Under the pieces are notes generated by a model. It searched no databases. It saw only the letters and a list, made by a program, of their open reading frames with translations, and had not been told where the DNA came from. A program made the translations under genes and the position numbers. This document shows, one piece after another, positions 7,501 to 62,794 of a DNA stretch of 64,000 bases. The stretch covers positions 143,665 through 207,664 of the forward strand of contig CAWHSF010000003.1 in the NCBI GenBank assembly GCA_963832025.1. Direction: 5' to 3'. The DNA comes from Candidatus Nomurabacteria bacterium (GTDB taxonomy: Bacteria > Patescibacteriota > Minisyncoccia > Phycocordibacterales > UBA9973). How positions within the stretch are numbered: the stretch's first letter is position 1; each line of letters opens with the position of its first letter.

Positions 7501-8985
7501 CCAAGTTGTGTTGGCGGCGCAGGTACAATTAACAGTTAGGCCAGAACCGTTGGGAGAAGTCGGAACAAGCGATTTGGCATTATTGTAAAGATAGAAAGTT
7601 TTACCAGCATATGGGACAGTCGTTGGCACACTAGTTCCAGAATCTCCCAAAAAGACGTTTACACCAGAACTAGTTATAGCAGAACCATTTGGAACTTCTG
7701 GATTTGTAACATTCCAAGTTAAATTTACAGTACCACTACCAGAATTAGCTGGAACAGTACAAGCCGTAGCACTCATCGTACCCGACATAGTACCAACAAT
7801 AATAGTAAATGGTATTTGTGGGCCAAAAGCAGTGCTTCCATTAAACATCTGCCATATTTCTGTGTATGTCTTAGCGGCAGATGGAGCAGTTAAAGAACTT
7901 AAGGAAAAAGTTGTTGTTGCGTTAGAAGCAACATCGGCGCTACCACTAGTAGATTCTGTATATACTGCACTACAGTTGGTATTGCTGTTCCACGTTCCAC
8001 CACATCCAGCCTGACAGACATTGGAACTTGTCCCGCAACCTACGCTTCCATTAACAGTACATGAATTTGCGAGACCATTCCAGCTTCCGCCACACATTCC
8101 ACAATTACTAGCGTTAGCACTACAGTTAAAAGAACCACTAGAAGAACACGAACCCAAACACGATTGAGAGTTATATTTACACGTCTGAGTGGTTGTCTGA
8201 CTATATGGTATGGGATTCGGACTAGAACTAAAGCCTCCAGTAATATCTTTCAGTTTGATTGTGCTTGAATAATTTGTGATCGTGGCTGTACATGTGTCTC
8301 CTAAAGTTGTAGGACAAGAATAGAGACCATCAGTTGCTCCACAGTCTGATGATTTAGAAATCGATTTTTGGTCTGACACCCAATTAGGAGTTGCGCCAGT
8401 GCTGGTATTTTTGATAGTAAATATGTAAGGCCCACTTACTTGGCTTGTGTTCATCTGAGTCGGCATACTCGGAGAAAGTGGAGATACAAAAGAATCATTT
8501 AAGGTAGTTGATGGAGAGCCAAAAGATGCAGTACCGTCTGAAAGATAAGTAACAGAACCCCAAGGCGCATAACCTGGATATGGATTAGAATTTAAAGTAA
8601 AAGAATATGTTCCCTGCTCAGGATGATCACTTGTGCCACAATTATTATAACTTGAATTATAAGCCGTTTGTGTAATGGTAATATTACTAGAAGGAATACT
8701 TCCAGATACTCCATCAATTGTATATGAAAGATAACCACCCGACTCGAAGATGTCTAGTGGAGGACTTAATCCGAGTGTATTATCACATGTGACAGTTTGA
8801 ACGTTATAGCCACTTGAGAAAGTTCCAGAAATGGTAATACTGCTACTAGTAGAACTGGCACCCACGGTGACATTGGAAGTACAGCCACTGCCAGTGCATG
8901 ATGCTTTTGTCGTGGAAACATTAAAGAGAGCAAATAGAGCAATAACTGCTATAAGCAAACCAGAAACAAAAATTTTCTTTTTCAT
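4507..8985 (-). CDS. giant repeat-rich secreted surface protein (adhesin-like, InlB-B-repeat-like modules); reading frame interrupted twice
   Basis: Signal peptide MKKKIFVSGLLIAVIALFALF. Three tracked ORFs (6730..9021, 5145..6803, 4507..5277) join at protein-repeat level. They are broken by an extra C at 6748-6750 and an 8-bp tandem duplication at 5210-5225. The first and third ORFs share a frame (9021-5277=3744). Confidence 0.75.
5210..5225. repeat. perfect 8-bp tandem duplication (gacattcc x2) causing a frameshift in the surface protein gene
   Basis: Read directly. Deleting one unit restores ...CSSSPNGMSGTLTPPITSC..., which matches the other module junctions. Confidence 0.85.
5561..5837. 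repeat. 277-bp direct repeat, copy 1 (partner at 7242-7518)
   Basis: taaacgtcgcggtaactgctttagctgcagtcatgg...ccaagttgtgttggcggc appears identical by eye in both places. Confidence 0.85.
6115..7240. repeat. tandem array, 5 x 225 bp (75-aa module FTINTYxVTPSAGTGGTISPNNAQVVNYGSTKAFTL...CTVIAN)
   Basis: The marker gtgaagtttgcaatcaccg recurs at 6115, 6340, 6565, 6791 and 7016. The single 226-bp period contains the extra C. Confidence 0.9.
7242..7518. repeat. 277-bp direct repeat, copy 2
   Basis: See the partner at 5561-5837. Encodes the same ...EALTVTPAGTGTGTVTSSPAGISCGADC... module. Confidence 0.85.
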
Positions 8986-9139
8986 ATTTATTTTTTGATT
9001 AGTAAAAAAGATTAACTCCAATAATTATAATATATATAACAACTTAAGTAAAATATTTTGGTGTGTATAACCCATCTATGAACTTTTTTGAGCACCTTGT
9101 CTTGAAATAATTTTTATGATAGACTGCTTTATGTATGGA

Positions 9140-12646: not shown

Positions 12647-13741
12647 ATGCAAATAAAAATAACAAAATTACCAAAAAGTGAAATAGAAATTGAAGGAGAG
12701 CTGGAAGCAGATATTTTTGAGACTTATTTTTCCAAAGCGGTAAAAAGAATCGGAGAAACAATAAAAATTGATGGCTTTCGCCCTGGAAAAATTCCAGAAA
12801 GCGTTTTGCTTTCCAAAGTCCCAGAATCTCAAATCTTAGAAGAGATGGCAGAGCTCGCTTTGAATGAACACTATCCTAAAATTATTGATGAAAATAAAAT
12901 TGACGCAATCAGTCGTCCGGAAATTTCTATCCTAAAACTAGCTAGAAAAAACCCGCTCGGTTTTAAAATCAAAACCGCAGTAATACCGGAGATGAAACTT
13001 CCTGACTACAAAAAAATTGCCAAGGAAATAATTTCTAAAATTACCGACGAAGAAAAAAATGTCGCAGTCACGGATGAAGATTTAGAAAATACTATAATGG
13101 ATATACGAAAATCTCGCGCTCCAAAAATACATATGGCAGAAGTGGCAGTCCAGACGTCCGACGTTAAAGATGCCCCAACGTCGGACGTCGAGAATACCGA
13201 AATCAAAACAGAAACCAAAGAAGAACTTCCCGAATTCAATGATGAATTTGTGCAGGCGCTCGGACCTTTTAAAGATGTTAAGGACTTTAAAGAAAAATTA
13301 AAGGAAAATCTTAAACTGGAAAAAGAAAATGCTCAAAAAGAAAAAACCAGAATAAAAATAATTGAAAAAATAATTGAGGAGAGCGCAATAGAGACGCCTG
13401 AAATTTTAATTGAAGTTGAGCTAGATAAAATTTTATATCGAATGGAATCAGATATTACCCAGATGGGTCTCAAGTTTGAAGATTATTTAAAACATCTTAA
13501 TAAAACAATTGATGATTTGAGAAAAGAATTTCGCGGAGATGCTGAGAAAAAAGCGAAACTTGCCCTTGTGTTAAATGAAATAGCAAAAGAGGAAAAAATT
13601 ACTGCCGATCCCGAACAAGTTGCACGCGAAGTCGCTGCCATTTTGGAACATTACAAGGAAGCGGACCCGGAACGCGCAGCAATGCACGCCGAGAACGTGC
13701 TCACCAACGAAAAAATCTTTCAGTTTTTGGAAAATCAATAA
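12647..13741 (+). CDS. tig: trigger factor
   Basis: N-terminal GFRPGKIP motif and overall TF architecture. PPIase region short or divergent. Confidence 0.8.
   Translation: MQIKITKLPKSEIEIEGELEADIFETYFSKAVKRIGETIKIDGFRPGKIPESVLLSKVPESQILEEMAELALNEHYPKIIDENKIDAISRPEISILKLARKNPLGFKIKTAVIPEMKLPDYKKIAKEIISKITDEEKNVAVTDEDLENTIMDIRKSRAPKIHMAEVAVQTSDVKDAPTSDVENTEIKTETKEELPEFNDEFVQALGPFKDVKDFKEKLKENLKLEKENAQKEKTRIKIIEKIIEESAIETPEILIEVELDKILYRMESDITQMGLKFEDYLKHLNKTIDDLRKEFRGDAEKKAKLALVLNEIAKEEKITADPEQVAREVAAILEHYKEADPERAAMHAENVLTNEKIFQFLENQ
13153..13189. repeat. family-A-like hairpin inside tig coding sequence
   Basis: Perfect 13-bp arms gacgtccgacgtt / aacgtcggacgtc, 11-nt loop. Translated as TSDVKDAPTSDV. 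Confidence 0.8.
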
Positions 13742-20280: not shown

Positions 20281-20415
20281 AATAACAGAAAGTATATTGG
20301 GAGTGCGAAAGAAGAAAATATAAAATAGAGAGTTTGTCAGGTTTTTAAAATTTTTCTTTATTCTTTGCATTAGGAGAAATGGTAGCATTTTAAAAACTAG
20401 AAGCAAGTGGATAAC

Positions 20416-21222
20416 TTAAAGGGAAATATTCATATCTTTTCTGATTCCCTCACAAAGTTTTTTCGCTTCATTTTTGGGATTTTTAGAAAAAATAATTCCG
20501 CGTGAAGAGTTTATGATTAGTCCAAGTCCGTTTTTATTTAATCCTGCTTTTATCACAGCTTTGAGGTCTCCCTGTTGTGCTCCAATTCCGGGAACCAAAA
20601 AAATCATCTCGCCCACGATAGAACGTATTTTTTTCATCTCTTTCGGATAAGTCGCTCCCACCACGAGCATGCAATTGTTATTTTTATTCCATTGTTTTGA
20701 AACTCTTTCTGCGACAATTTGCCAAAGTTTTTTCGTGCCAACGTCTAAATCCTGAAACTCTTTCGCTCCTTCGTTTGATGTTCGGCAAAGAATTATGCAA
20801 GCTTTATCTTTCCTCTCCAAAAATGGTTGTAACGCTTCTTGTCCTAAATATGGATGTAGCGTCACGGCGTCGAAGCCGAGCCAGTCAAAAATCGCAGTCA
20901 CATAACCGTTGTTTGTGTTTCCAATATCTGCTCTTTTTGCATCCAAAATAGTAAAAATTTCTGGATAATTTTTATTTAAAAAATCCATCGTCATTTTTAA
21001 TTCTCGTATTCCTTTTTCTCCACGCGCTTCGTAAAATGCGCTGTTTGGTTTATAAGCGGAAGCATATTCATGAGTTTCTTTTATAATCCATTTATTAAAC
21101 TCGAACTGTGGAAACTTTTTCTGCAAAAATCTTTTAGGAATTTTATTAAAATCAGTATCGAGCCCTACGCAAAGCAGGGATTCTATTTTTTTTGCTCTTT
21201 TGTTGTATTTATCAATAATCAT
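20416..21222 (-). CDS. pyrF: orotidine 5'-phosphate decarboxylase (type 2)
   Basis: DAKRADIGNT motif, 268 aa. Confidence 0.85.
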   Translation of the reverse strand: MIIDKYNKRAKKIESLLCVGLDTDFNKIPKRFLQKKFPQFEFNKWIIKETHEYASAYKPNSAFYEARGEKGIRELKMTMDFLNKNYPEIFTILDAKRADIGNTNNGYVTAIFDWLGFDAVTLHPYLGQEALQPFLERKDKACIILCRTSNEGAKEFQDLDVGTKKLWQIVAERVSKQWNKNNNCMLVVGATYPKEMKKIRSIVGEMIFLVPGIGAQQGDLKAVIKAGLNKNGLGLIINSSRGIIFSKNPKNEAKKLCEGIRKDMNISL

Positions 21223-28378: not shown

Positions 28379-28390
28379 AAATCACTCAGA

Positions 28391-28437
28391 AAAGGCGGGT
28401 TTGGTAAATATTATTACCAAACCCGCCTTTTCTTTTG
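28391..28437 (+). terminator. intrinsic terminator after rny
   Basis: aaaggcgggtttggtaa ... ttaccaaacccgccttt followed by tcttttg. Confidence 0.75.
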
Positions 28438-28885: not shown

Positions 28886-29452
28886 TCAATATTTCCTTAT
28901 CACCGCCTTTAGTATAGCTATCACGTTCAAGGAATGTTCCGGATGAATAGGTTTGTAATTTTTGTTTGCGGGTTCGAGCCAACGTTTGCTTCCTTTCTCA
29001 CGAAGATATTTCATGGTGAATTCTCCATCCACTTCGGCAATGATTATCTGTCCGTCTTTCGCATGATTTGTTTTCTCTACCAGCACCATGTCTCCCTTTT
29101 CTATATGCGCATCTATCATGGAGTCACCATCAACCTCAAGCATGTAAGTCAGCGGTTTATTTTTGATCAGAAGATCATCCAAGTTTACCGTATCTGCGAG
29201 CTCTTCTTCAACGGTCGCCGGAAAGCCAGCTGTAACGTATCCAAGCATCGGTACTTCTCCAAATGTTTCGGATGGCATTAATCTGCCAAGATGGTCCTTG
29301 GCTACGAATCCTGCTTCTATAAGTTTTTCTACAATTTTAAAAACCGCATTCTTGGATTTGAAACCGAAAAGTTTCAGCATCTCAGAGTATGTCGGCATTC
29401 TTTTGTTGTCGCTGTAAAAGGATTCTATTTTTGTTTGATAAATGTTTTTCAT
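28886..29452 (-). CDS. lexA: LexA-type repressor (wHTH + S24 peptidase)
   Basis: GDSM serine motif and downstream Lys (FTMKYL). 188 aa. Confidence 0.8.
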   Translation of the reverse strand: MKNIYQTKIESFYSDNKRMPTYSEMLKLFGFKSKNAVFKIVEKLIEAGFVAKDHLGRLMPSETFGEVPMLGYVTAGFPATVEEELADTVNLDDLLIKNKPLTYMLEVDGDSMIDAHIEKGDMVLVEKTNHAKDGQIIIAEVDGEFTMKYLREKGSKRWLEPANKNYKPIHPEHSLNVIAILKAVIRKY

Positions 29453-29759: not shown

Positions 29760-29788
29760 AGTATAAGTGAACGCTCGTTCACTGTCAA
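29760..29788 (-). promoter_or_regulatory. SOS-regulated promoter: -35 TTGACA, LexA (Cheo-type) box in the spacer, -10 TATACT
   Basis: Minus strand reads TTGACAgtGAACgagcGTTCacTTATACT. The GAAC-N4-GTTC box lies at 29769-29780. Confidence 0.6.
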
Positions 29789-29810
29789 CAACCCCACCTG
29801 TGGATAACTC

Positions 29811-29856
29811 TCCAGACGTTGGACGTCTGTGTTCTTACAGACGTCCAACGTCTGGA
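29811..29856. repeat. family-A nested palindrome
   Basis: Arms tccagacgttggacgtctg / cagacgtccaacgtctgga (19 bp, 8-nt loop). Each arm is itself palindromic (cagacgt tgg acgtctg). Confidence 0.9.
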
Positions 29857-32499: not shown

Positions 32500-32542
32500 G
32501 ACCGCATGATAGCAATATTCTTTTTTTATAGCAAGGGATTAA

Positions 32543-32604
32543 CCTCCAGACGTCCAACGTCTGGAGGAGATGTTGGACACCTGCTTTGCAGATGTCCAAC
32601 ATCT
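32543..32604. repeat. two adjacent family-A hairpins upstream of metK
   Basis: cctccagacgt cca acgtctggagg (32543-32567). agatgttggaca ... tgtccaacatct (32568-32604); the latter is an inverted relative of 43673-43709. Confidence 0.9.
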
Positions 32605-32622
32605 AGTGTTATACTCAAAACT

Positions 32623-42014: not shown

Positions 42015-43667
42015 ATGCAAAAAGTTTGTAAAACCTGCGAAAAAGATTTTGAAATAAGAAAAGAAGATCTGATTTTTTACGAACAGGTAAAAACTATTCC
42101 CCCAGTTGATTGTCCGGATTGTCGCGCAATGAAACGCCTCGCGTTTAGAAACGAACGGACTTTTTACAAGAGGCCGTGTGACATGTGCAAAAAAGACATG
42201 GTATCTTTATACCCGGCTGATTCTCCATACCAAATTTACTGCAACGAATGTTGGTGGAGTGATAAGTGGGACCCCAAAGATTTTGGACAAGAATATGATT
42301 TGAGTAAAACATTTTTTGAACAATACGCAGAGTTACAAAAAAAAGTACCCCGATTATCATTGATGAACCTTAATGCGGTGAGAACTGAGTATGCAAACGG
42401 GACATCGGACAACAAAGACAGTTATTTGATTTTTGCCGGAGAATATAACGAAGATTGCATGTATAGTAGGCTGGTTCAAAAATGCAAAGGCTGCGTCGAT
42501 TGCGCTTTTATTCACCAATCAGAATTATGTTACGAGTGCATAGACACTCGAGAGTGTTTTAAATGCATGTACTGCGAACAATGTCAGACTTCTACTGACC
42601 TTATTTTTTGTTACAATATGCGCAATTCAAACAATTGTATTTTTTGTACGAATGGAAGAAATGTTTCAAATTCAATACTGAACGTAAAATACAACAAAGA
42701 GGAATTTGAAAAGAAAAAAGCAGAAATTTTTTCTAGTTACGAAAATATTGAAAAAGCAAAAGAAGATTTTAAGAAATTAAAAGACAGTATAGTTGTAAAA
42801 TTTTCCGCGCAAACAAAATGCAACAATGTGACCGGTGACTATTTACATAATTGTTATGATGGTGTAAGGGTTTTTGATACAACAGGAGCTAAAAATTGTT
42901 CTTATGTGGCAGACACTGAAGAATCGATAGATAGCCAGGATTGTAATAATTTTTATTACAAAAATGAACTTTGTTACAACATTATGGGCGTATTACAGTG
43001 CAGTAAATCAAAAAATTGCGCCTTCGTTTTTTATTCTAATGAAGTAGAATATTCTGAAAATTGTCATAATCTCACCAGCGGTCTCGGCTGCAATGCCATA
43101 CGCAAGGGTGAATATATGATTTTAAATAAAGAATATTCCAAAGAAGAATATTATGCCTTAAAGGAAAAAATCAAAGAACAAATGAAAAGAGATGGTGTTT
43201 TTGATCAGTTTTTTCCTCCAAAACTTTCTCCATTTGGATTTAATGAATCCCTCGGATATGATTATTATCCTATAACCAAAGAATGGGCAACACAAAAAAG
43301 CTTTAATTGGCAAGATAAAACAACCGGGACATACGGAAAGGAAACAATTAAAGAAGCAGAAATACCGAAAACTATCGACGAAGTTACCGAAGACATTTTA
43401 AATCAGATTTTAGTTTGTAAGGAATGTAAAAAGAACTTTCGTATTACAAAAGGAGAATTAGATTTTTATAAAAAGATGGGTATTCCTTTGCCCCATAAAG
43501 ATTTCGAATGCAGATACCAAGAAAAAATGTCTGAAAGAAATCCTCGCAAACTTTGGCATCGCAAATGCATGAATGATGGATGCAAAAACGAATTTGAAAC
43601 AGCCTACTCCCCCGATCGACCAGAAATAGTTTACTGCGAAACTTGTTACAACCAAGAAGTATATTAG
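42015..43667 (+). CDS. cysteine-rich protein with near-duplicate N- and C-terminal zinc ribbons
   Basis: CKTCEKDFEIRKEDLIFYEQVKTIPPVDCPDCR at the N-terminus and CKECKKNFRITKGELDFYKKMGIPLPHKDFECR near the C-terminus. Two central blocks of regularly spaced Cys. Confidence 0.7.
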   Translation: MQKVCKTCEKDFEIRKEDLIFYEQVKTIPPVDCPDCRAMKRLAFRNERTFYKRPCDMCKKDMVSLYPADSPYQIYCNECWWSDKWDPKDFGQEYDLSKTFFEQYAELQKKVPRLSLMNLNAVRTEYANGTSDNKDSYLIFAGEYNEDCMYSRLVQKCKGCVDCAFIHQSELCYECIDTRECFKCMYCEQCQTSTDLIFCYNMRNSNNCIFCTNGRNVSNSILNVKYNKEEFEKKKAEIFSSYENIEKAKEDFKKLKDSIVVKFSAQTKCNNVTGDYLHNCYDGVRVFDTTGAKNCSYVADTEESIDSQDCNNFYYKNELCYNIMGVLQCSKSKNCAFVFYSNEVEYSENCHNLTSGLGCNAIRKGEYMILNKEYSKEEYYALKEKIKEQMKRDGVFDQFFPPKLSPFGFNESLGYDYYPITKEWATQKSFNWQDKTTGTYGKETIKEAEIPKTIDEVTEDILNQILVCKECKKNFRITKGELDFYKKMGIPLPHKDFECRYQEKMSERNPRKLWHRKCMNDGCKNEFETAYSPDRPEIVYCETCYNQEVY

Positions 43668-43672
43668 CAACC

Positions 43673-43709
43673 AGACGTTGGACATCTGCAAAGCAGGTGT
43701 CCAACGTCT
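43673..43709. repeat. family-A hairpin just after the Cys-rich gene stop
   Basis: agacgttggaca tctgcaaagcagg tgtccaacgtct. The loop is the reverse complement of the 32580-32592 loop. Confidence 0.9.
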
Positions 43710-43713
43710 CAAA

Positions 43714-45360
43714 TTAGTTTACTCCGTGTTTTTGGTGAAGTTTGGCAACTTCTTCTTCCTCAAGCTCTTCTTTTTTTTCTTTCCCTCGCTCGCCGAGAGT
43801 TTTTAGCTCATCGTCTCCGAGCATATTTAGAGATTTTACCAAGTGCTGAAAGATGTTCTACGGTATTTTTCTCTGGCGCATCCAAAACTTCTTCAAGTAA
43901 AGCGTGTAAAATCCATCCCATGCGTGGTCCAGGCGTAATTCCGAGTTCTTTTATCATAAATTCTCCATTTATTTTCAATTGTCCGACAGAAATTGGGTCG
44001 CGAAGTGCTTCTTCGATCATTGCAAAATATTTTCGCAATCGATAGGTGCTTCTTTTTTCTTCATCCCCACCCTGTCACACTCACGGACATTCATCAGAGC
44101 CCAAATATTTTCTTTTCCGACTTTGGCAATAATTCTTCGCACAGCGGAAAGCGTAATCAGTTCTGTATCGGAAAAAAACATATGATTATGAACAAGTTTT
44201 TCCACCAACTCAATTTCTTTTTTGGGAAATTTTAATCTCTCCATTATTTTTTTTGTCATCCGCGCACCGATAACTTCATGACCGTAAAAAGTATATTGCT
44301 TTTTTGGCTGTCGAGATGTAGGAGAATTCTGCTGGCGGAAGGTTCCGGCCGAAGGCTGGAGAAAAGCCGAAGAATTTTTCTGCATCTCGACAGCCTCACG
44401 TCTACTTCTTGGCTTTCCAATATCATGAAAAAGTGCTGCGAGCCTTATTTCCAAAGGCCAATTTTTGTCTGCTGCATGTTGCACCGCGTGTAATAAATGA
44501 TTCCAAACATCATAAATATGTTCCCCCGATTGTTCGCAATTTATTCCCTCTTCCAATTCCGGAATTATATTTTTTAGCAAACCAAATTTTTGCAACATCA
44601 AAATTCCACTCGCAGGATTTTTTGATAAAATTATTTTTTCAAATTCATCACGAATTCTTTCTTCCGATATTTTTTTTATTAATTCAGAATTTTTTAAAAT
44701 ACTTTCCATTGTTTCATACGACACAGAAAAATCTAGTTGGCAAGCAAAGCGCACAGCTCGCAACATACGTAGTGCATCTTCTTTAAATCTATCATCTGGA
44801 TTTCCTACCGCTCTAATGGTTTTGTTTTCAATGTCCTTTATCCCGTTATATAAATCTACAATATGTCTTTTATCTTGTCCTTTATACTTGCCTGCCAAAG
44901 CTTTAGCGTCGGCAGGTCCAAAGCCATCGCATTAACTGTGAAATCACGTCTTTTAAGATCATCTTCAAGCTTATCACTGAAAATTACTTCATCTGGATGC
45001 CTAAAATCAGTATATTTTGTTTCAATTCTATAAGGAGTGACTTCAATGATCATATATTCTGATGTTTCACGAGAAACATCTTCAATTTGTGTTACATGTG
45101 GAACATCAGTCTGTTTAGGCAGGCACAACTCCAACAGTTCCAAAGTTATTTTCATATATAGTTTTTTCAAATAAATCAATAATTTGTTCTGGCTTAGCAT
45201 CAGTGGTAACATCCCAATCCTTTGGCTCTCTACCATTAACAAGATCACGAACACATCCACCGACTAGGTACGCCTCAAAACCAGCTTCTTCTAATCTATC
45301 TGTTACTTGTGAAACTTCTTTGGGGATTTTCGATATTAAATTTTTTACGTCTTTTTCCAC
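43714..45360 (-). pseudogene. cca: CCA-adding tRNA nucleotidyltransferase with HD domain; frame broken about 4 times (error versus pseudogene unresolved)
   Basis: Segments [20 protein letters not shown]..., [11 protein letters not shown], ...RFKEDALRMLRAVRFACQL, LAALFHDIGKP and the C-terminal tail lie in different frames. Breaks are near 45120, 44930, the T6 run at 44052-44057 and the T4 run at 43834-43837. The GTG start at 45360 is tentative. Confidence 0.75.
44306..44395. repeat. family-B-like element, exactly 90 nt, in frame inside cca
   Basis: Perfect 13-bp terminal inverted repeats ggctgtcgagatg / catctcgacagcc. Interior has gaattctgctg and gccgaag. Encodes AVEMQKNSSAFLQPSAGTFRQQNSPTSRQP. 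Confidence 0.8.
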
Positions 45361-45372
45361 TTTGGAAATATG

Positions 45373-45443
45373 TGCGGCTAGGGAGAATCGAACTCCCGTC
45401 TCATCCTTGGCAAGGACGTGTTCTACCACTAAACCATAACCGC
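45373..45443 (-). tRNA. tRNA-Gly (GCC)
   Basis: GCGGTTA acceptor, anticodon loop TTGCCAA, GTTCGATTC T-loop. No encoded CCA. Confidence 0.85.
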
Positions 45444-45562
45444 TAATTTATGATTAATAAAACAATTATATATTATATTCAGGATATTGCAATTTATACG
45501 AATAGTGCTTAAAAATAAGGACATTTTGCAAATACTAAATAAGGTGTATAATAAAGTTTATT

Positions 45563-45634
45563 GCACCCGTAGTGAAATGGATATCACAACAGTCTTCGGA
45601 ACTGTCGTTGGGGGTTCGAATCCCTCCGGGTGCA
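45563..45634 (+). tRNA. tRNA-Arg (TCG)
   Basis: GCACCCG acceptor, anticodon loop CTTCGGA, GGTTCGAATCC T-arm. Extended -10 promoter TGtATAAT at 45545-45552. No encoded CCA. Confidence 0.85.
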
Positions 45635-45901
45635 CAAAAGATCAACAATCAGCTGTCCTTGATGCTTTAGCTTTGTTTATAAGGATTTTTGTTAAAAATG
45701 TGGATAACTATGTTAGTAATGTTTATAAAGGACACAATAAATTTCTGTCTTTAAGGCACTTTTTTTCAAAATATCATTATAAAATAAGGATATTATGTTA
45801 AAAGACACCTAATTATTGATTTTTGTTTCATGTGAAACAAAAATGAATAATGTTATTTATGAAACGTTAAAAAATCAGTATAAATAAGCCTACTTTCAAT
45901 T

Positions 45902-46291
45902 ATGCCTAAAGTATTTACATCAGAAAAACAAAAAATAGGAGAACTTGGAGAAAACATAGCAGTCAAATTTCTCACGAAAAAAGGTTTTTTTATATCAGAG
46001 AGAAATTATACTAAAAAATGGGGTGAGATAGATATTATAGCTGAGAAAAATAATAAGTTATATTTTATAGAAGTAAAATCTTGTTAACATATGTCCAAAC
46101 CTCATAACTATCGACCGGAAGACAACATGCACCCATGGAAATTAAAAAGACTCTCAAGGACAATCCAAACATATCTTTTATCTAAAAACGTACCGGATGA
46201 AAAAGAGTGGCAAATGGATTTATTGCTAGTTTTTCTTGATATAAAAAACAAAAAGGCAAAAATAAAAGTAGTCAGTGATATTATACTGTGA
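45902..46291 (+). pseudogene. yraN: YraN/UPF0102-family endonuclease-like protein interrupted by an in-frame TAA
   Basis: WGEIDIIAEKNNKLYFIEVKSC-TAA-HMSKPHNYRPEDNMHPWKLKRL. Both tracked ORFs are in the same frame; the stop is at 46085-46087. Confidence 0.65.
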
Positions 46292-46315
46292 ATATGACTA
46301 GCGCTATTATTCTAG

Positions 46316-46386
46316 TGCGGGATGGGAGAATCGAACTCCCAACCTCAGTTTGGAAAACTGACGTTTTACCATTAAACTAATCCCGC
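46316..46386 (-). tRNA. tRNA-Gly (TCC)
   Basis: GCGGGAT acceptor, anticodon loop TTTCCAA, GTTCGATTC T-loop. No encoded CCA. Confidence 0.85.
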
Positions 46387-46416
46387 AATGTTAAAAATCC
46401 TGAATTTACTGAAGGG

Positions 46417-46487
46417 TCGGGCTGCTGGGAGTCGAACCCAGCCTAAATGCTCCCAAAGCACTTGTACAACCGATATACTACAGCCCG
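46417..46487 (-). tRNA. tRNA-Pro (TGG)
   Basis: CGGGCTG acceptor, anticodon loop TTTGGGA with G37, GGTTCGACTCC T-arm. No encoded CCA. Confidence 0.8.
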
Positions 46488-46524
46488 TTGTTTTGACAAC
46501 TGAGTTTTATCTTAACATAACAAA

Positions 46525-47604
46525 TTAGTAATTCCAAGGTTTCCAGGAATCATTTGCTCCTGGATTTTGAGCACCATGGACTTCAAAGTGTAGATGAGGG
46601 CCGGTTGCATGACCGGTTTCTCCGACAAGACCTATGACATCTCCCTGAGAGACTTCTGCCCCTGTTTCGGTGAGTATTTTTGACTGGTGAGCATATAAAG
46701 TCTGTGTTCCATTTGAATGATCAATAATTACAACATTTCCAAAACCTCCATTATATCCATATCTAGCAAGGATAACTTTCCCGTCAGCGGCGGCGTGGAT
46801 TGGAGTTCCAGTTGGTACTGCCAAGTCTACTGCGTTGTTGTCGTGAATACCTTGACTTAACCTGTAACCAGGTACAGGGTCAATATAATAGTCAGCAAAA
46901 TTTTGCGTAGGATGCTGTTCATAATACAACTTATCTTTAGCAATACTTGCGCCCAATTCTTTCTCTGGGATAGGCGTACCACTTTCCGCAGAAGATTCTT
47001 CGGCATTTGGAATAATAAGAGTTTCACCGGCAATTAGGGGGGTATCTAAGGTTATGTCGTTGGATTGAACAATATCACTTACATTAACTTTATAAATTTT
47101 TGCAATACTTTGTAAAGTGTCCTTTGTTTTAACGGTATATTCAAGTCCAGAACATGGGAGAATCAAAAGAACTTCGCCGGTGGTGATAGTGTCTCCTTTT
47201 TTCATATCGTTAGCCCAAAGAATAGTATTCACTGATACATTAAAAGTCTTAGCTATCCAGGCTAGAGAATCACCACTTTTTACTACATAGTTAGAATCAT
47301 TTCCGGAACAATCGAGTGTATCTGCTCCATTTGAAACGCCCATTGGTCCAGTGGGAGCAGCAATAGCCGTACCTGTACTGTCAATGGTTGTAGGAGAAAA
47401 GTCGTCATTGACATCTTGACTATCACTGACCTGAGAAGAATCGCTAACTTGAAGAGCTAAATCCGAACTTTGAGAATTACTACCGACTTGGAGGGTAGTA
47501 GTGGCTGTTGAACTAGAATCAGCAAAGGCTGGACCTCCGATAAATAAGGAAGAAAAAATATTAGCTTGAGCTACCCCTACGGGCACAAAAAGTGTTCCAA
47601 ACAA
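46525..47604 (-). CDS. secreted peptidoglycan hydrolase, 2 x LysM + M23 peptidase
   Basis: YVVKSGDSLAWIAKTFNVSVNTILWAN and YTVKTKDTLQSIAKIYKVNVSDIVQSN (LysM). GHATGPHLHFEV (M23). The signal-peptide region continues upstream without an in-frame ATG. Confidence 0.85.
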   Translation of the reverse strand: MFGTLFVPVGVAQANIFSSLFIGGPAFADSSSTATTTLQVGSNSQSSDLALQVSDSSQVSDSQDVNDDFSPTTIDSTGTAIAAPTGPMGVSNGADTLDCSGNDSNYVVKSGDSLAWIAKTFNVSVNTILWANDMKKGDTITTGEVLLILPCSGLEYTVKTKDTLQSIAKIYKVNVSDIVQSNDITLDTPLIAGETLIIPNAEESSAESGTPIPEKELGASIAKDKLYYEQHPTQNFADYYIDPVPGYRLSQGIHDNNAVDLAVPTGTPIHAAADGKVILARYGYNGGFGNVVIIDHSNGTQTLYAHQSKILTETGAEVSQGDVIGLVGETGHATGPHLHFEVHGAQNPGANDSWKPWNY

Positions 47605-47900
47605 CAGGAAAAAAGAGACAAGAGATCTTAATTTTTTAAATTTAGGCTTTATATAACAAACTAAATACCATGAGATTTCCTTTTCTGTCCTTATTTTATA
47701 AGGCTAGAATGACAGGACGACCTATAAGGTACTGTATCCGCCGAAGGCGGAGAAGGTTTCTCACGATGTTACTGTCTACTCTATAATTCGGTCAGCTAGT
47801 ACCATACTTCTGTTCAGGACTATACAGAAATGGTATCTCAAAAACACCTAAAAGTCAATTTAGTAAGAGGTGGGTGTGGAAAAGTATTTTGGACTAAAAT

Positions 47901-47929
47901 TTGACAAACTTTGTAAAATATTTGATAAT
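47901..47929 (+). promoter_or_regulatory. promoter upstream of gene 47988
   Basis: TTGACA, 17-nt spacer, GATAAT. A second TATAAT at 47975-47980 lies 7 nt before the ATG. Confidence 0.45.
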
Positions 47930-47987
47930 ATATGAAATTTTCAATAAAAATTAGTCTTAAAAACTAAAAAGAAATATAATAAAGGAC

Positions 47988-49415
47988 ATGAGAGAACGAA
48001 AATTGCCCAGGAGAGTACAAGAAAAAATAGACAGAGGGGGCTTTAGTCATCCAGATATTGATGCCGCTAATTATCCAGTCTCCACGCAAGATATAAATCC
48101 AGAACCACACACAGGACTAGAGAAAACGCCAGGAACAAAAACCTTTGGAACTAAATTTATAAGTCAGCAAATTAAAACCTTGCTTGAAAGCCAAGAAAAG
48201 ATACAAGAAATAAAGAGTTTAAATGTTGTGGGTTCTGGCGGTGAGATAAGATTAGATACTTTTGTAAAGGCCAAAGATATAATAACAGCCACTGTCGGTA
48301 TACAAGCAGTTCTTGAAAACAAGAATGGTTCCTTGGCTGTAAAAAGTTATGAAATTGATGCTCCAATTTACGCAAAAGGGACAGTGGAAAAAATTATAGC
48401 CCCAAAGCTTGGTGAAGTTTCAGAATTATTAAAATCATACGTAGAAAAACAAGAGGGTAGGAAGGTAGCAAAAATTGAAATTGAAAACGGAGAGTTAAAA
48501 GTAACTTTTGCCAAACAAACAACAGTTCCTGTGGCAAAAAAGGAGGCGCCGGTTTTAGAAGCAACACAAGCAATACCTAAAGATCAGGTTGCACCAATCA
48601 CAGCAGAAACTATTGCAACACTTAAAAAAACAATAGAACACACTCAGGAGACACTTGAAAAAATTAAGGAAGAAAGAGCAGCATATAAAAAATTAATGGA
48701 AGATATGCGTAGAGAATTGGAAACACTGGAAAAAGAAGAGGGGACCACCGAGTCTGAAGCTCAACAAGTTGCTGTTCAAACACACAAAGAGATTTCAAAT
48801 GCTGATAAAACAAAAGTTGAACAGAGCAAAGATTCTACTGGATCTTTCACAAAAGAAGAAAAAGATAAAGAGGCTGATCCTATATATGAAGAGGCTAAGG
48901 CTTTAGTCCTAGAATTTGGAATAGCTTCTACTTTACTTCTACAAGGAAGATTAAGAATTAGATACAGTAGAGCTGCCAACCTGATAGAGATGATGGAAGA
49001 ACGCGGAGTTATAGGTCCAACGGATGGCATTAAGCCAAGAGAAATTTTAGAAAAAGTCACTCAAGCTAAGAACCCTACTAAATCCTTAGGAAAAGAACAA
49101 AAAATAACGGAGATTGGAAGAAAGTGGAAAGCAGAAATAGACAGCATGGAGGAAATTAAAAAAGAAAAAAGTTATTTAACAAGGAAAATTGAATCTGCAA
49201 TAGGAATCGAAAAAAAATACGCAGCCGAGTATCTTGAGATGCTTAACAATTCACCACTGGAATTTTATACAAAAAGATTAGGACACGCTACAATAACATT
49301 TTCTCAACAATGGGCTAAGGAAGAAGTTGAAAAAATTCAGAAAACAATTGATGAAATCAACACAATAAATACAAGGTACAGCAACATGCTTGAAAATTTA
49401 GAAAAAGAATCTTAA
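47988..49415 (+). CDS. coiled-coil protein with a stand-alone FtsK-gamma (KOPS-type winged-helix) domain
   Basis: DPIYEEAKALVLEFGIASTLLLQGRLRIRYSRAANLIEMMEERGVIGPTDGIKPREIL (nt about 48876-49056). No translocase motor motifs. Confidence 0.7.
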   Translation: MRERKLPRRVQEKIDRGGFSHPDIDAANYPVSTQDINPEPHTGLEKTPGTKTFGTKFISQQIKTLLESQEKIQEIKSLNVVGSGGEIRLDTFVKAKDIITATVGIQAVLENKNGSLAVKSYEIDAPIYAKGTVEKIIAPKLGEVSELLKSYVEKQEGRKVAKIEIENGELKVTFAKQTTVPVAKKEAPVLEATQAIPKDQVAPITAETIATLKKTIEHTQETLEKIKEERAAYKKLMEDMRRELETLEKEEGTTESEAQQVAVQTHKEISNADKTKVEQSKDSTGSFTKEEKDKEADPIYEEAKALVLEFGIASTLLLQGRLRIRYSRAANLIEMMEERGVIGPTDGIKPREILEKVTQAKNPTKSLGKEQKITEIGRKWKAEIDSMEEIKKEKSYLTRKIESAIGIEKKYAAEYLEMLNNSPLEFYTKRLGHATITFSQQWAKEEVEKIQKTIDEINTINTRYSNMLENLEKES

Positions 49416-52267: not shown

Positions 52268-54391
52268 GTGACAGATGAGACAAAACATTTGGAAGGATTA
52301 AACCCTGAGCAAAAAGAGGCGGCGCTTCATATGAAGGGTCCGCTTCTTATTGTGGCTGGAGCGGGAGCGGGCAAGACTAAAACTATTACGCACAGAATTG
52401 TGAATCTGATAAAGAATGGCGTTCCTCCAGAAAAAATATTGGCGGTGACATTTACCAACAAGGCTGCGAAGGAAATGCGAGAGAGAGTCATTGCAGAAAT
52501 TAATAAAAACTTCGTCGGCAATGCCTTTTCTCAGGTCCTCGGTTCTCCGGGTCCCTATCCCGGCCAGACCATTCCAAAAGGCCTTGCCGACTTCGTAAAT
52601 AAGGCACCTTTTGTCAGCACCTTTCATTCTTTGGGAGTTTTTATTATAAAAGAAAACGCCAGATTGCTTGGGCTGACTAGGTATTTCACGATTTTGGATG
52701 AGGGAGATTCGACAGGAATGATAAAAGAAATAATGAAAAGCTTGGGGATAGACCCAAAACAATACGATCCGAAAAAAATAAAAAATATTATTTCGCGCGA
52801 GAAAGGAAAATTTGTTTATTTAACGGAATACACGGAAAGAGAAAATAGCAGTCTGGGAAGAATTGTAGCCCAAATCTGGAATTTATATGAGAAACAAAAA
52901 ATGAAGGAAAATTCTTTGGATTTTGACGATTTACTTTTAAAAGCGACAAAATTGTTAAAAGACAACAAGGAAATTAGGGAACTTTATCAAGATAAATGGG
53001 AATATATTCATATAGACGAATATCAAGACACCAATGAAGTGCAATATTTGATGACCAAATTGCTTTCCGAAAAATACAAAAATATTTGCGTGGTCGGGGA
53101 TGCAGACCAGAATATTTATTCTTGGCGCGGAGCAAATTTAAAAAATATTTTGAGTTTTGAGAAAGATTATCCGAATGCAAAAATAATTTTATTGGAGCAA
53201 AATTATCGCTCGACCAAAAATATTCTGGAAGCGGCAAATGAAATCATTAAAAAAAATAAATATAGACCGGATAAAAATTTATTTACAAAAAATGTTGTCG
53301 GAGAAAAAATCGGCTTGTATGAAGCATTGGATGAAACCGACGAAGCGGATTTTGTAGCGACAAAAATTTTAGAACTAATGGACAAGGGAAAAGATTTGTT
53401 TTTGCGGGGTCTCTCGCAGGCCGACGGGCCGAGAGGGAACGCTGTGCGAGCACGCACAGACAGTGACCTCGCAAAAACAGAATCTTTTTCTTTGTCCGAA
53501 ATCGCCCTGTTATATCGCGCAAATTTTCAATCGCGCGCGCTGGAAGAAGCCATGCTTCGCTACAACATTCCATACCAAGTTTTGGGTGTTAAGTTTTTTG
53601 AAAGAAAAGAAATCAAAGACACTTTGGCATATCTGCGCGCAGCGCTGAATCCGGAAAGTTTGTCCGACATAAAAAGAATAATAAATTTCCCGGCGCAGAG
53701 GCATCGGCAAGGTTACATTATTGAAAATATTTGCCGGAGAACGGGAAACTTTACCGATAAAAGTAAGAATTAAAGTTGATAATTTTTATACAACATTGGA
53801 AGAAATAAAAGAAAAAATATTAAAAGTGAAAAAACGAGCGAGGTAATAAAATTTGTAGTGAAAAAATCCGGCATTGAACAAGAATTGAGTAGCGGGGGAG
53901 ATGAAGATATTGAAAGATTGGAAAACATAAAAGAGCTTGCGACCTTGGCATTAAAATATGATAATTTAGAAAATGGAGCCGGTGTAGAAAAACTTTTAGA
54001 AGATGCATCATTGGCATCGGACCAAGATTCACTGATGATAAATCAAGAGAAGAAAGAAAGAAAAGAAGTAAATGCAGTGAAATTAATGACCGTGCATGCG
54101 TCAAAAGGCCTTGAATTCAAATACGTTTTTGTCACTGGTTTGGAAGATGGACTTTTCCCGCACGAAAGACAAAATGAAGGACAGAGTGGTGAAGACAGAG
54201 AAGAAGAACGCAGACTTTTTTACGTGGCGCTGACCAGAGCTAAAGAAAAATTATTTTTATCTTTAGCAAATTTCCGTACAATTTTCGGCTCACGCAACAT
54301 AAACGCACCATCAGAATTTATTAGCGACATACCGGCAGATTTATTAGAAAAAGAAGGAGAGGGGCACGGCATAAAAACAATTTATTTATGA
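52268..54391 (+). CDS. pcrA: UvrD/PcrA-family superfamily-1 DNA helicase; a 140-nt internal segment lies in a shifted frame
   Basis: AGAGAGKTKTITHR, TFTNKAAKEM, HIDEYQDTN, VGDADQNIYSWRGA, YRSTKNIL, LLYRANFQSR and VKLMTVHASKGLEF motifs. The motif RGIGKVTLLKIF is readable only in the +1 frame between about 53696 and 53834. Confidence 0.88.
53391..53487. repeat. family-B-like element in frame inside pcrA
   Basis: Arms agatttgtttttgcg / cgcaaaaacagaatct. Interior tcgcaggccgacgggccgagag resembles the core gcgcaggcgggtagccgagca. Encodes DLFLRGLSQADGPRGNAVRARTDSDLAKTESF. Confidence 0.7.
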
Positions 54392-55510: not shown

Positions 55511-55556
55511 TCCAGACGTTGGACGTCTGTATCCGTCCAGACGTCCAACGTCTGGA
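55511..55556. repeat. family-A nested palindrome just after the ksgA stop
   Basis: Arms are identical to 29811-29856 (tccagacgttggacgtctg / cagacgtccaacgtctgga); the loop differs. Confidence 0.9.
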
Positions 55557-62478: not shown

Positions 62479-62794
62479 CCCCGTAGTAGAATTTTGATTT
62501 AATTATGTTCTATATATATTGTTTAGAAAGTTTAAAAAATAAAGAATTGTATATAGGTTTTACTAAAGACTTAAGAAAAAGATTGTTGGAACATAATCAG
62601 GGATTAAATTTTTCTACAAAAAGATATCTGCCGTGGAAAGTGATATACTATGAGGGATGTATTGAAGAAAGTGATGCGAAAAGAAGGGAAAAATATTTAA
62701 AAACGACACAAAGTGGAAGATTGTTAAAAAGAAGAATGAAAGATTATTTATATAAGAGTCGAAAAATTTAATTAATTAAAATTTCACTACAGGG
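62479..62794 (+). mobile_element. GIY-YIG gene cassette bounded by imperfect 17-bp inverted repeats
   Basis: ccccgtagtagaatttt (62479-62495) versus aaaatttcactacaggg (62778-62794), 14/17 complementary. Sits between two paralogous genes. Confidence 0.45.
62505..62771 (+). CDS. GIY-YIG nuclease-domain protein (UPF0213/YhbQ-like)
   Basis: FYIYCLES...ELYIGFTKDLRKRLLEHN. Confidence 0.8.
   Translation: MFYIYCLESLKNKELYIGFTKDLRKRLLEHNQGLNFSTKRYLPWKVIYYEGCIEESDAKRREKYLKTTQSGRLLKRRMKDYLYKSRKI

What the first reader, a model, noticed from the sequence alone, without database searches (positions are those of the whole stretch)
29811..29856. Family-A nested palindromes (CCAGACGTTGGACGTCTGG type) at gene boundaries
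Identical 19-bp arms occur at 29811-29856 and 55511-55556 with different loops.

Related hairpins occur at 32543-32567, 32568-32604 and 43673-43709. The last two are inverted versions of each other, loop included.

Each 19-bp arm is itself a palindrome (cagacgt-tgg-acgtctg), so the DNA could form cruciform or alternative hairpin states.

All copies sit immediately after stop codons (NUDIX, the Cys-rich gene, ksgA) or before metK. None is followed by a clear U-tract.
Basis: seen in the sequence. Interest (0 to 1): 0.55.

Follow-up and report, generated by a model that had tools for sequence, protein, structure and literature searches.

The report
REP-like mobile palindromes in a Patescibacterium
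The hairpins are copies of a small mobile palindromic repeat (REP/REPIN type) that is tied to its own HUH tyrosine transposase gene in this group of ultra-small bacteria, and that inserts both next to genes and, in frame, inside them.

Summary

The unit is CAGACGT-TGG-ACGTCTG. Its exact 19-mer occurs only in nine Patescibacteria/Paceibacterota species genomes out of 185,579 scanned.

In two relatives, and in a short assembly from the window's own sample, the units flank a 220-aa Y1/HUH transposase. That protein scores at Pfam's Y1_Tnp threshold, and its predicted fold best matches the E. coli REP-associated transposase (PDB 4ER8).

Across 80 metagenomic homologues the flanking palindrome changes with lineage (43 different stems). 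It stays the same on both sides of the gene and, unexpectedly, also inside the transposase ORF.

About a fifth of the copies in relatives sit in frame inside housekeeping genes such as PurH, GuaA, MnmA and a Mur ligase.

Many copies carry a 12-nt tag, TGTGGATAAMCC, instead of the classical GTAG. Its first nine bases equal the DnaA-box consensus.

Verdict: a REP/REPIN–RAYT system, which is a known kind of element, in a new phylum and with unusual features. A terminator role is at most secondary.

The parts
29799..29810 (+). 12-nt tag TGTGGATAACTC directly 5' of the hairpin. Bases 29799-29807 are the reverse complement of the DnaA-box consensus TTATCCACA.
   Evidence: The same tag (TGTGGATAAMCC, at most 1 mismatch in the 9-mer) abuts units at 17 further places in related genomes.
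29811..29856 (.). Type-A REP dimer (REPIN-like): unit CAGACGT-TGG-ACGTCTG and its inverse, with a 6-nt loop. It lies 15 nt downstream of the NUDIX stop and upstream of the lexA-like promoter.
   Evidence: DNA fold -25 kcal/mol, z = -10.
32536..32544 (+). Degenerate tag GGATTAACC (AAGGGATTAACC matches 8 of 12 positions of TGTGGATAAACC).
   Evidence: The orthologous position in L029 reads GGTTAATCC.
32543..32567 (.). Single type-A unit in CCA orientation, with the stem extended to 11 bp (CCTCCAGACGT-CCA-ACGTCTGGAGG). It sits just upstream of the -35 of the dksA-like gene.
32568..32604 (.). Type-B variant hairpin AGATGTTGGACACCTGC-TTT-GCAGATGTCCAACATCT. It is fully paired, with one G·T, on the - strand, and overlaps the -35 region of the metK promoter (TATACT at 32610-32615).
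   Evidence: The orthologous site in L029 carries a perfect type-A dimer instead.
43671..43711 (.). Type-B variant hairpin (arms 43673-43689 and 43693-43709), fully paired with one G·T on the + strand. It lies 5 nt after the stop of the Cys-rich ORF 42015-43667, in a convergent intergenic region.
   Evidence: The orthologous site in L018 carries a type-A dimer.
55511..55556 (.). Type-A REP dimer with an 8-nt loop, 2 nt after the stop of the ksgA-type rRNA dimethylase gene.
13144..13198 (.). Decayed palindrome of the same family (CCAGACGTCCGACGTT ... AACGTCGGACGTCGAG), in frame in the linker of the trigger-factor gene 12647-13741. It encodes VAVQTSDVKDAPTSDVENT.
   Evidence: It is absent from the closest trigger-factor homologues and from the MAG_BO118 orthologue P0162.

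Best explanation
The hairpins are members of a family of repetitive palindromic elements of the REP/REPIN kind.

**Anatomy.** The monomer is a 17-19-nt perfect palindrome with a 7-8-bp stem and a 3-nt TGG/CCA loop. A 12-nt tag, TGTGGATAAMCC, often precedes it.

**Proposed mechanism (inferred).** By analogy with E. coli TnpA-REP and with IS200/IS605 transposases, the units are recognised as folded single-stranded DNA hairpins. A cognate Y1/HUH tyrosine transposase (RAYT) would cut and rejoin them. That gene appears vertically inherited and sits elsewhere on the same chromosome, itself bracketed by the same units. This would spread the units to new sites.

**Why insertion is tolerated in genes.** The unit has no stop codon in any of its six frames. 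In-frame insertions of 14-19 codons can therefore persist in loops and linkers of proteins.

**Why copies sit near stops.** In this gene-dense genome, copies persist where they do least harm, mostly within 20 nt of stop codons. There the hairpin may also stabilise or end transcripts.

**Shown versus inferred.** Shown here: the repeat family, its restriction to one clade, its association and covariation with the RAYT gene, the RAYT fold, the in-frame insertions, and occupancy of orthologous sites. Inferred: the catalysis itself and any effect on RNA.
For: **1. Repeat family, not chance.**
- There are 82 units (at most 2 mismatches) in 290 kb of window plus related loci.
- Of 29 neighbouring unit pairs, 28 are inverted.

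**2. Clade restriction.**
- The exact 19-mer was found in 29 stretches from 9 species-level MAGs, all Patescibacteria/Paceibacterota or unnamed bins of that kind, out of 185,579 species genomes.
- No match was found in viral contigs.

**3. Cognate transposase.**
- L010:1076-1741 (MAG_BO118) and L015:2253-2909 are 69% identical and share a homologous neighbouring gene.
- Both are flanked on both sides by type-A units with the tag.
- They score 26.4 and 23.5 bits on Pfam Y1_Tnp (cut-off 23) and match NCBIfam REP_Tyr_transpos.

**4. The window's own organism.**
- Ten window proteins lie on a contig recorded as 430,556 nt long.
- The RAYT homologue P0006 is also recorded on a contig of 430,556 nt. 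It occurs in the same run, ERR11523672, as the window's NUDIX protein.
- That short contig (L030) starts with AGACGTCCAACGTCTGGAGGGTTATCCACA upstream of the gene.

**5. Fold.**
- The AlphaFold model of P0006 has pLDDT 75.8 and pTM 0.74.
- Its best PDB match is 4ER8, 'REP associated tyrosine transposase bound to a REP hairpin' (E 2.4e-4), followed by IS608 and ISDra2 TnpA.
- The HUH histidines (H84, H86) and Tyr137/Tyr144 are invariant in 43 sequences.

**6. Covariation.**
- In 80 metagenomic RAYT loci, perfect 7-3-7 palindromes lie upstream in 48 of 69 and downstream in 50 of 72.
- There are 43 different stems among all such palindromes in these loci.
- The stems flanking one gene are usually the same on both sides.

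**7. Vertical inheritance.**
- The order FtsK ... RAYT, 208-aa gene, surface protein, rplJ, rplL is conserved in L031-L039, and from RAYT onward in L010.

**8. Insertions.**
- In-frame copies occur in PurH (twice), GuaA, MnmA, a Mur ligase (same site in two species), cysteine desulfurase (same site in two species) and a DUF4147/MOFRL protein.
- One PurH copy is a 16-residue gap against the PurH of another Paceibacterota contig (L037).

**9. Known precedent.** REPs lie mostly within 20 bp of 3' ends and occasionally inside genes (PMC3733652).
Against: - The defining GTAG or CGTC tetranucleotide of described REP superfamilies is absent. The tag here is different and is present on only about a third of the clusters.
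- Copy density is modest: 5 loci in 64 kb, against hundreds of copies per genome in classical cases.
- NCBIfam's RAYT equivalog cut-off is not reached (30 versus 80 bits). A sequence profile of the family finds no PDB relative.
- No filled-versus-empty site pair was resolved at DNA level, so no insertion junction or cleavage dinucleotide is known.
- The two syntenic sites compared with MAG_BO118 are occupied in both species. Those insertions are therefore old, and recent mobility is not demonstrated.
- The RAYT gene is not in the 64-kb window itself.
Confidence: 0.85

Rival explanations
1. They are primarily factor-independent, bidirectional transcription terminators or 3'-end RNA stabilisers. 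Their similarity to each other would reflect selection for a good hairpin.
For: - Three of the four window loci start 2-15 nt after a stop codon.
- In relatives, 20 of 34 gene 3' ends that face a unit are within 20 nt of it.
- The hairpins are very stable, -17 to -25 kcal/mol as DNA, z about -9 to -10.
- REPs are known to affect mRNA ends (PMC3733652, PMC8266576).
Against: - No T-run follows any copy. The only terminator-scan hit among them is an artefact: it takes one arm (29813-29829) as the hairpin and the dimer's own loop as the T-rich tail.
- The same genome has canonical hairpin plus T-tract terminators, such as 28388-28433.
- One locus lies between divergent promoters (32543-32604).
- 11 of 46 clusters fall inside called ORFs, and nine of these were checked by hand as in-frame insertions.
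- Selection for 'a good hairpin' does not explain an identical 19-mer in nine other species, or its bracketing of a transposase gene.
- The spread over tandem, convergent and divergent intergenic regions (22/4/2) does not differ from the background of 72/14/14%.
Confidence: 0.06
2. They are binding sites for a host protein: either a dimeric regulator that recognises the 19-bp palindrome, or DnaA through the adjoining TTATCCACA box. The sites would serve regulation or DnaA titration rather than mobility.
For: - An 8-bp inverted repeat with a 3-bp spacer is a typical operator layout (general knowledge).
- 27 perfect DnaA-box 9-mers occur in 290 kb against 3.6 expected from base composition, and 11 of them abut a unit.
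- At 29799-29807 the box lies 11 nt upstream of the -35 of the lexA-like promoter.
Against: - Copies lie after stop codons and inside coding regions rather than at promoters.
- The tag has no orientation preference relative to neighbouring genes: 6 same, 7-10 opposite.
- The tag is confined to one sub-clade: 5 of 45 TGG/CCA-loop units and 0 of 140 other units in the metagenomic RAYT loci.
- Stems change freely between lineages while remaining palindromic. This fits hairpin recognition better than a fixed operator sequence.
Confidence: 0.05
3. They are DNA uptake sequences of naturally competent Patescibacteria. Like Neisseria DUS, they would often be arranged as inverted pairs behind genes and kept uniform by biased uptake and recombination.
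For: - The identical 19-mer is shared by nine species-level genomes of one clade and is found nowhere else.
- Copies occur both between and inside genes.
- Neisseria DUS pairs form terminator-like hairpins (general knowledge).
Against: - Density is about one locus per 6-13 kb. That is one to two orders of magnitude below DUS/USS.
- Intragenic copies are whole 14-19-codon insertions rather than motif-like substitutions.
- The sequence changes with the RAYT lineage and brackets that gene.
Confidence: 0.02

Closest known systems
REP/REPIN-RAYT systems (REPtrons) of gamma-proteobacteria: E. coli REP/BIME with TnpA-REP, Pseudomonas REPINs
   Same: - Short palindromic units, mostly extragenic and close to 3' ends of genes.
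- Units commonly paired in inverted orientation.
- A conserved unpaired tag beside the stem.
- A Y1/HUH transposase gene in conserved gene order, bracketed by the cognate units.
- Unit sequence co-varies with the transposase lineage (PMC8266576, PMC3333891).
   Different: - The tag is a 12-mer, TGTGGATAAMCC, not GTAG.
- The units are perfect 7-8-bp stems with a 3-nt loop, and the dimer nests them.
- Copy density is lower.
- About a fifth of copies are in frame inside genes.
- A cognate unit lies inside the transposase ORF in 47 of 80 loci.
- The host is a Patescibacterium (CPR).
- The protein misses NCBIfam's RAYT cut-off (30 versus 80 bits).
Rickettsia palindromic elements (RPE) and intragenic REPs (Ogata 2000; Di Nocera 2013, PMC3733652)
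   Same: - Palindromic repeats inserted in frame into housekeeping genes of a reduced-genome bacterium.
- They add short peptide segments in loops and linkers.
- The same gene can be hit twice, as PurH is here.
   Different: - RPE-1 type elements are 100-150 bp and have no identified transposase.
- The CGTC-tagged families have a different consensus: a CGTC tag, a stem starting with AT, a 4-5-nt loop and a CCA tail.
- No sequence relation to those elements is seen here.
IS200/IS605 insertion sequences and their miniature derivatives (PATEs)
   Same: - A Y1/HUH transposase fold. IS608 and ISDra2 TnpA are the next-best structural matches.
- Subterminal hairpins on both sides of the gene, in the same orientation.
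   Different: - The gene keeps a conserved chromosomal neighbourhood across the contigs examined, so it does not behave as a mobile IS.
- The dispersed copies are bare hairpins, not gene-less IS ends.
Intrinsic terminators, and Neisseria DUS pairs behind genes
   Same: A G+C-rich hairpin a few nucleotides after the stop codon.
   Different: - No U-tract follows the hairpin.
- The sequence is identical across loci and across species.
- Copies also occur inside ORFs and between divergent promoters.

Membership tests
REP/REPIN-RAYT (REPtron) | Short (20-50 nt) palindromic unit repeated through the genome, mostly extragenic | tested here: met
   - 5 loci in the 64-kb window.
- 82 units in 290 kb of window plus related loci.
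- 35 of 46 clusters lie outside called ORFs.
REP/REPIN-RAYT (REPtron) | Conserved tetranucleotide GTAG (or CGTC) at one end of the palindrome | tested here: not met
   The flanks shown have no GTAG or CGTC tag. Instead, TGTGGATAAMCC abuts the unit at 18 places (at most 1 mismatch in the 9-mer), and the other copies are untagged.
REP/REPIN-RAYT (REPtron) | Units paired in inverted orientation (REPIN/BIME) | tested here: met
   28 of 29 neighbouring unit pairs are inverted. The modal start-to-start spacing is 25 nt.
REP/REPIN-RAYT (REPtron) | Cognate transposase gene bracketed by the units | tested here: met
   - L010 units at 957-1020 and 1775-1833 bracket the gene at 1076-1741.
- L015 units at 3029-3142, 2915-2953 and 2159-2231 bracket the gene at 2253-2909.
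- L030, from the window's own sample, has the unit and tag upstream.
- 33 of 80 metagenomic loci have the lineage's unit upstream, inside and downstream of the gene.
REP/REPIN-RAYT (REPtron) | The transposase is a Y1/HUH enzyme of the RAYT type | tested here: inconclusive
   - Pfam Y1_Tnp scores 23.0-27.5 bits against a cut-off of 23.
- HUH and Tyr residues are invariant.
- The best structural match is the E. coli RAYT, 4ER8.
- The NCBIfam RAYT equivalog scores 30 bits against a cut-off of 80.
- A sequence profile finds no PDB relative.
REP/REPIN-RAYT (REPtron) | Single-copy, vertically inherited transposase gene | tested here: inconclusive
   Gene order around the gene is conserved across the contigs examined. 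Copy number per genome could not be counted, because only fragments of each genome were available.
REP/REPIN-RAYT (REPtron) | The enzyme cleaves and rejoins the single-stranded unit | not testable with these tools
   This needs a cleavage and strand-transfer assay as in PMC8266576.
Intrinsic (Rho-independent) terminator | G+C-rich hairpin immediately followed by a run of T | tested here: not met
   There is no T-run after any of the four loci. The only scan hit takes one arm as the hairpin and the dimer's own loop as the tail.
Rickettsia palindromic elements | In-frame insertion of a palindromic repeat into protein-coding genes | tested here: met
   Nine in-frame copies lie in Pfam-supported ORFs of relatives. 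The window has a decayed copy in the trigger-factor gene, 13144-13198.
Rickettsia palindromic elements | Sequence and size of the described RPE families (about 100-150 bp, or the CGTC-tagged RPE-4/-6) | tested here: not met
   The unit is 17-19 nt and the dimer 44-46 nt. The consensus differs from the CGTC families as described in PMC3733652.
DnaA box | 9-mer TTATCCACA (TTWTNCACA) that is bound by DnaA | tested here: inconclusive
   - The sequence criterion is met at 29799-29807 and at 10 further unit-adjacent places.
- Binding cannot be tested here.
- The tag is limited to one sub-clade.
- The RAYT has no DnaA domain IV-like region.
DNA uptake sequences (DUS/USS) | About one copy per kb, scattered through coding and non-coding DNA | tested here: not met
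   There is about one locus per 13 kb in the window. Even in blocks chosen because they contain the element, there is about one cluster per 6 kb.

The most novel reading that the evidence does not exclude
This may be a distinct class of REPtron, special to Patescibacteria, with two unusual properties.

- **The transposase gene carries its own cognate palindrome in frame.** Its presence is shown here: 47 of 80 loci carry it, at codons ~55-65 in most and also around codon 150 in some lineages, and it co-varies with the flanking units. Its function is unknown. It could be an autoregulatory hairpin, or a protected master copy that reseeds the family.
- **In the window's sub-clade the 9-nt tag may be a working DnaA box.** DnaA binding beside the palindrome could help open the duplex so that the hairpin extrudes for the transposase. 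Alternatively, the dispersed copies could titrate DnaA in a very small genome.

The probability given applies to DnaA binding with a functional consequence.
Probability: 0.15. Interest if true: 0.8.

Novelty: new variant of a known kind. Interest (0 to 1): 0.55.

Why it matters
- **Host range.** REPIN-RAYT systems are discussed as long-lived, vertically inherited replicators, mainly in proteobacteria with normal-sized genomes. Finding one in ultra-small, streamlined Patescibacteria shows that such elements persist even where non-coding DNA is scarce. The transposase family here has over 3,400 homologues in the protein search.
- **Protein evolution.** The system shows how the elements persist in such genomes: by sitting within a few nucleotides of stop codons and by inserting in frame into protein loops. 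That makes them a source of linker variation in essential proteins.
- **Experimental handle.** The co-varying copy inside the transposase ORF and the DnaA-box-like tag give two concrete handles on the open question of how RAYTs choose and spread their substrates.
- **Practical consequences.** These repeats break short-read assemblies: two Logan contigs end at them. They can also be mistaken for terminators or regulatory sites in CPR genome annotation.

Tried and rejected
- **Rfam, gathering thresholds:** only four tRNAs in the window, nothing at the hairpins.
- **Viral contigs:** no match to the 19-mer.
- **RAYT in the window:** tblastn with the two RAYT proteins found none in the 64 kb.
- **PDB by sequence:** neither the single RAYT nor a 9-sequence profile gave a significant match. 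Only the fold comparison reached the RAYT and IS608 structures.
- **DnaA domain IV in the RAYT C-terminus:** this was tested because some Y1 transposases carry a Bac_DnaA_C-like domain (PMC6006769).
- **Orientation of the tag relative to neighbouring genes, as a proxy for replication direction:** no bias.
- **Distribution over intergenic classes:** the tandem/convergent/divergent split is not different from background.
- **Solo tags in the window:** AGTTATCCAC at 20407 and 45700, and GGTTATACAC at 9063 and 62471, have no adjacent hairpin.
- **Exact look-up of the ksgA-type product:** failed, probably because the called start differs.
- **DNA of the 430-kb contig:** not retrievable, so no whole-genome census was made.
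- **TIGR/CRISPR-like array reading:** considered for the 72-nt-spaced units in bin-9791 (L024, L026, L028). Dropped because the sequence between the units is itself conserved rather than variable.
- **Literature:** no paper describing REPs in Patescibacteria was found. The library is incomplete.

Full report
**1. Observation**

- 29811-29856 and 55511-55556 are perfect hairpins. They share the 19-mer TCCAGACGTTGGACGTCTG and have different loops.
- 32543-32567 is one unit with an 11-bp stem. 32568-32604 and 43673-43709 are variant hairpins with 17-nt arms. They are reverse complements of each other apart from one compensated base pair.
- Each arm is itself a palindrome, CAGACGT-TGG-ACGTCTG.
- The family is far beyond chance. 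The 17-mer with up to 3 mismatches gives 13 hits against 0.05 expected, and CGTTGGACR gives 7 against 0.42.
- As single-stranded DNA the loci fold at -17 to -29 kcal/mol, with z about -9 to -10.

**2. Context in the window**

Pfam identifies the neighbours.
- A NUDIX gene (- strand) has its stop 15 nt from the first hairpin. Downstream lies a LexA-like gene with a Peptidase_S24 domain.
- A DksA/TraR zinc-finger gene and metK are divergent around the 32543-32604 pair.
- A 550-aa Cys-rich ORF stops 5 nt before 43673.
- A KsgA-type dimethylase gene stops 2 nt before 55511.

No copy is followed by a T-run. The genome does have canonical hairpin plus T-tract terminators, for example 28388-28433.

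- A decayed copy lies in frame in the linker of the trigger-factor gene, at 13144-13198.
- TGTGGATAA at 29799-29807, 3 nt upstream of the first hairpin, is the reverse complement of the DnaA-box consensus. It begins the 12-nt tag that abuts the hairpin.

**3. Distribution**

- The exact 19-mer was found in only 29 stretches of the 185,579-species genome collection. All are from nine MAGs of Patescibacteria/Paceibacterota or unnamed bins of that type. MAG_BO118 (JARLIG01) has at least 24 arms.
- The window is about 78% identical in DNA to two MAG_BO118 blocks.
- At both syntenic sites the element is present in both species, but in a different form. The window has a single unit plus type B, or type B alone. 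MAG_BO118 has perfect type-A dimers.
- The window's proteins lie on a contig recorded as 430,556 nt, seen in NCBI, ENA and Logan.

**4. Anatomy of the family**

- In 290 kb (window plus 29 loci) there are 82 units with at most 2 mismatches. Of 29 neighbouring pairs, 28 are inverted, and the most common spacing is 25 nt.
- A 12-nt tag, TGTGGATAAMCC, abuts the unit at 18 places.
- Perfect TTATCCACA 9-mers number 27, against 3.6 expected from composition, and 11 of them abut a unit.
- The unit has no stop codon in any of its six frames. This can be read directly from the sequence.

**5. Copies inside genes**

- 11 of 46 clusters fall inside called ORFs.
- Nine were checked by hand in ORFs with Pfam support.
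  - PurH carries two, both with the tag, each 19 codons long.
  - GuaA carries PDVGRLEASRRPTSG within the GATase domain.
  - MnmA carries one.
  - A Mur ligase carries one at the same site in two species, with the first unit flipped.
  - A cysteine desulfurase carries one at the same site in two species, type A in one and type B in the other.
  - A DUF4147/MOFRL protein carries one.
- Against the PurH of another Paceibacterota contig (L037), the first insertion is a clean 16-residue gap.
- Among 120 trigger-factor homologues the linker is hypervariable in length. It often encodes peptides that read as palindromes at DNA level, such as TSDIKNPMSDVK. The closest homologues, and the MAG_BO118 orthologue, lack the window's insertion.
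- This matches what is known for RPEs and for some REPs (PMC3733652; PMC10969869).

**6. The transposase**

- In MAG_BO118 (L010:1076-1741) and in JBAYFP (L015:2253-2909) a 218-221-aa ORF is bracketed by type-A units with tags.
- It matches Pfam Y1_Tnp at the cut-off. It also matches NCBIfam's REP-associated tyrosine transposase, but below that model's cut-off.
- It has 3,440 homologues with E of 0.001 or better. Sources that name the best-scoring ones place them in Paceibacterota, Nomurabacteria or Parcubacteria, and JGI labels many of them RayT.
- Homologue P0006 (81% identical) is recorded on a 430,556-nt contig. It occurs in the same sequencing run as the window's NUDIX protein.
- That short contig starts with a type-A unit plus GGGTTATCCACA upstream of the gene. 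A different hairpin plus GGTTATCCACA lies downstream.
- The window itself has no such gene.
- An AlphaFold model of P0006 (pLDDT 75.8) matches best the E. coli RAYT-REP complex 4ER8, then IS608 and ISDra2 TnpA.
- The HUH histidines and two tyrosines on the following helix are invariant.

**7. Covariation and inheritance**

- The gene sits in a conserved neighbourhood: FtsK ... RAYT, a ~208-aa gene, a large surface protein, rplJ, rplL. This holds in L031-L039, and from RAYT onward in L010.
- Different lineages carry different units of the same design: CGGGTGT-tgg-ACACCCG, TAGACGT-tgg-ACGTCTA, CAGGTAT-ccg-ATACCTG.
- In 80 further metagenomic loci a perfect 7-3-7 palindrome lies upstream in 48 of 69 and downstream in 50 of 72. 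The loci hold 43 distinct stems.
- Unexpectedly, 47 of 80 ORFs also contain such a palindrome, against 13 of 1,600 shuffled ORFs. In 44 of these the stem is the same as a flanking stem.
- The internal copy lies at codons ~55-65 in most loci, a low-confidence loop in the model. Some lineages have a further copy around codon 150.

**8. Interpretation**

- The simplest reading is a REP/REPIN population maintained by a domesticated Y1/HUH transposase.
- The classical GTAG tag is absent. The family is therefore filed as working like a REPtron, not as a member of the described GTAG or CGTC superfamilies.
- The DnaA-box-like tag is confined to the window's sub-clade: 5 of 45 TGG/CCA-loop units and 0 of 140 other units.
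- The tag has no orientation bias, and the RAYT has no DnaA-like domain.
- The tag is therefore most likely the lineage's recognition or cleavage tag. A real role for DnaA is possible but unsupported.
- A terminator or RNA-stabiliser effect of the extragenic copies is plausible as a by-product. It cannot explain the family.

**9. Limits**

- No whole-genome census was possible.
- No empty-site comparison was resolved at DNA level.
- No biochemistry could be done.
- Gene calls in the loci are longest-ORF approximations.
- The literature search covers open-access papers only.

Noticed in passing
L035:10182-10198, L037:10188-10204, L042:1682-1698 and 44 further loci among L041-L120: The RAYT ORF itself contains a perfect copy of its lineage's palindrome, in frame. 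It lies at codons ~55-65 in most loci, and some lineages have a second copy around codon 150. It is often part of a longer palindrome of about 37 nt. It occurs in 47 of 80 loci against 13 of 1,600 shuffled ORFs, with the same stem as the flanking units in 44. In the window's lineage (L010, L015, L030) this internal copy has decayed.
   Followed up: partly
window 29760-29788 (- strand): A near-consensus promoter, TTGACA-17-TATACT, precedes the LexA-like gene 28886-29452. Its spacer holds the palindrome GTGAACGAGCGTTCAC. This fits the GAAC-N4-GTTC LexA (Cheo) box of Gram-positive bacteria, which suggests autoregulation.
   Followed up: no
window 12647-13741 and homologues P0147-P0265: This trigger factor lacks the PPIase domain: only the Trigger_N and Trigger_C domains are found. 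Its N-C linker is hypervariable among 120 close homologues (349-379 aa). It carries recurring peptide motifs that look like translated palindromic repeats of several types, such as TSDIKNPMSDVK and SPLQEKAGDEV.
   Followed up: partly
window about 45000-48000: Cumulative GC skew reaches its minimum here, and gene orientation switches from mostly - strand to all + strand. This could be a replication origin, yet there is no dnaA gene. Only one perfect DnaA box is present (45699-45707), and it is conserved in the MAG_BO118 orthologous region (L018:1370).
   Followed up: no
window 52268-53773 and 53858-54391: A UvrD/PcrA-type helicase appears split into two ORFs. The first ends at UvrD_C model position 140 and the second resumes at position 233, with an 84-nt gap between them. 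This could be a split gene, a frameshift or an intervening element.
   Followed up: no
L024:3194-3304 and 7821-7991; L026:6991-7101; L028:5455-5625 and 7729-7911 (bin-9791): In this genome, type-A units occur in short arrays with 72-nt and 30-nt spacing. The sequence between the units is itself conserved (TTTGTTATAAAATAAGGATAT, promoter-like). This looks like a composite repeat built around the units.
   Followed up: no
L001:2165-2206 versus L022:6567-6608; window 32543-32604 versus L029:5459-5522; window 43673-43709 versus L018:3341-3404: At orthologous sites the element differs between species by inversion of the central TGG/CCA triplet of one unit, or by a switch between type A and type B. 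This suggests loop flipping (template switching at the small hairpin) or replacement in place.
   Followed up: partly
L030 (start) and L040 (end): Two short-read Logan contigs from the window's own sample end at or just beside a type-A element (L030 starts inside one; L040 ends about 14 nt after one). The repeats therefore fragment assemblies of this organism.
   Followed up: no
window 20407-20416, 45700-45709, 9063-9072, 62471-62480: Solo tag-like motifs (AGTTATCCAC, GGTTATACAC) occur at or near gene ends without an adjacent hairpin. They could be remnants of lost elements, real DnaA boxes or chance.
   Followed up: partly
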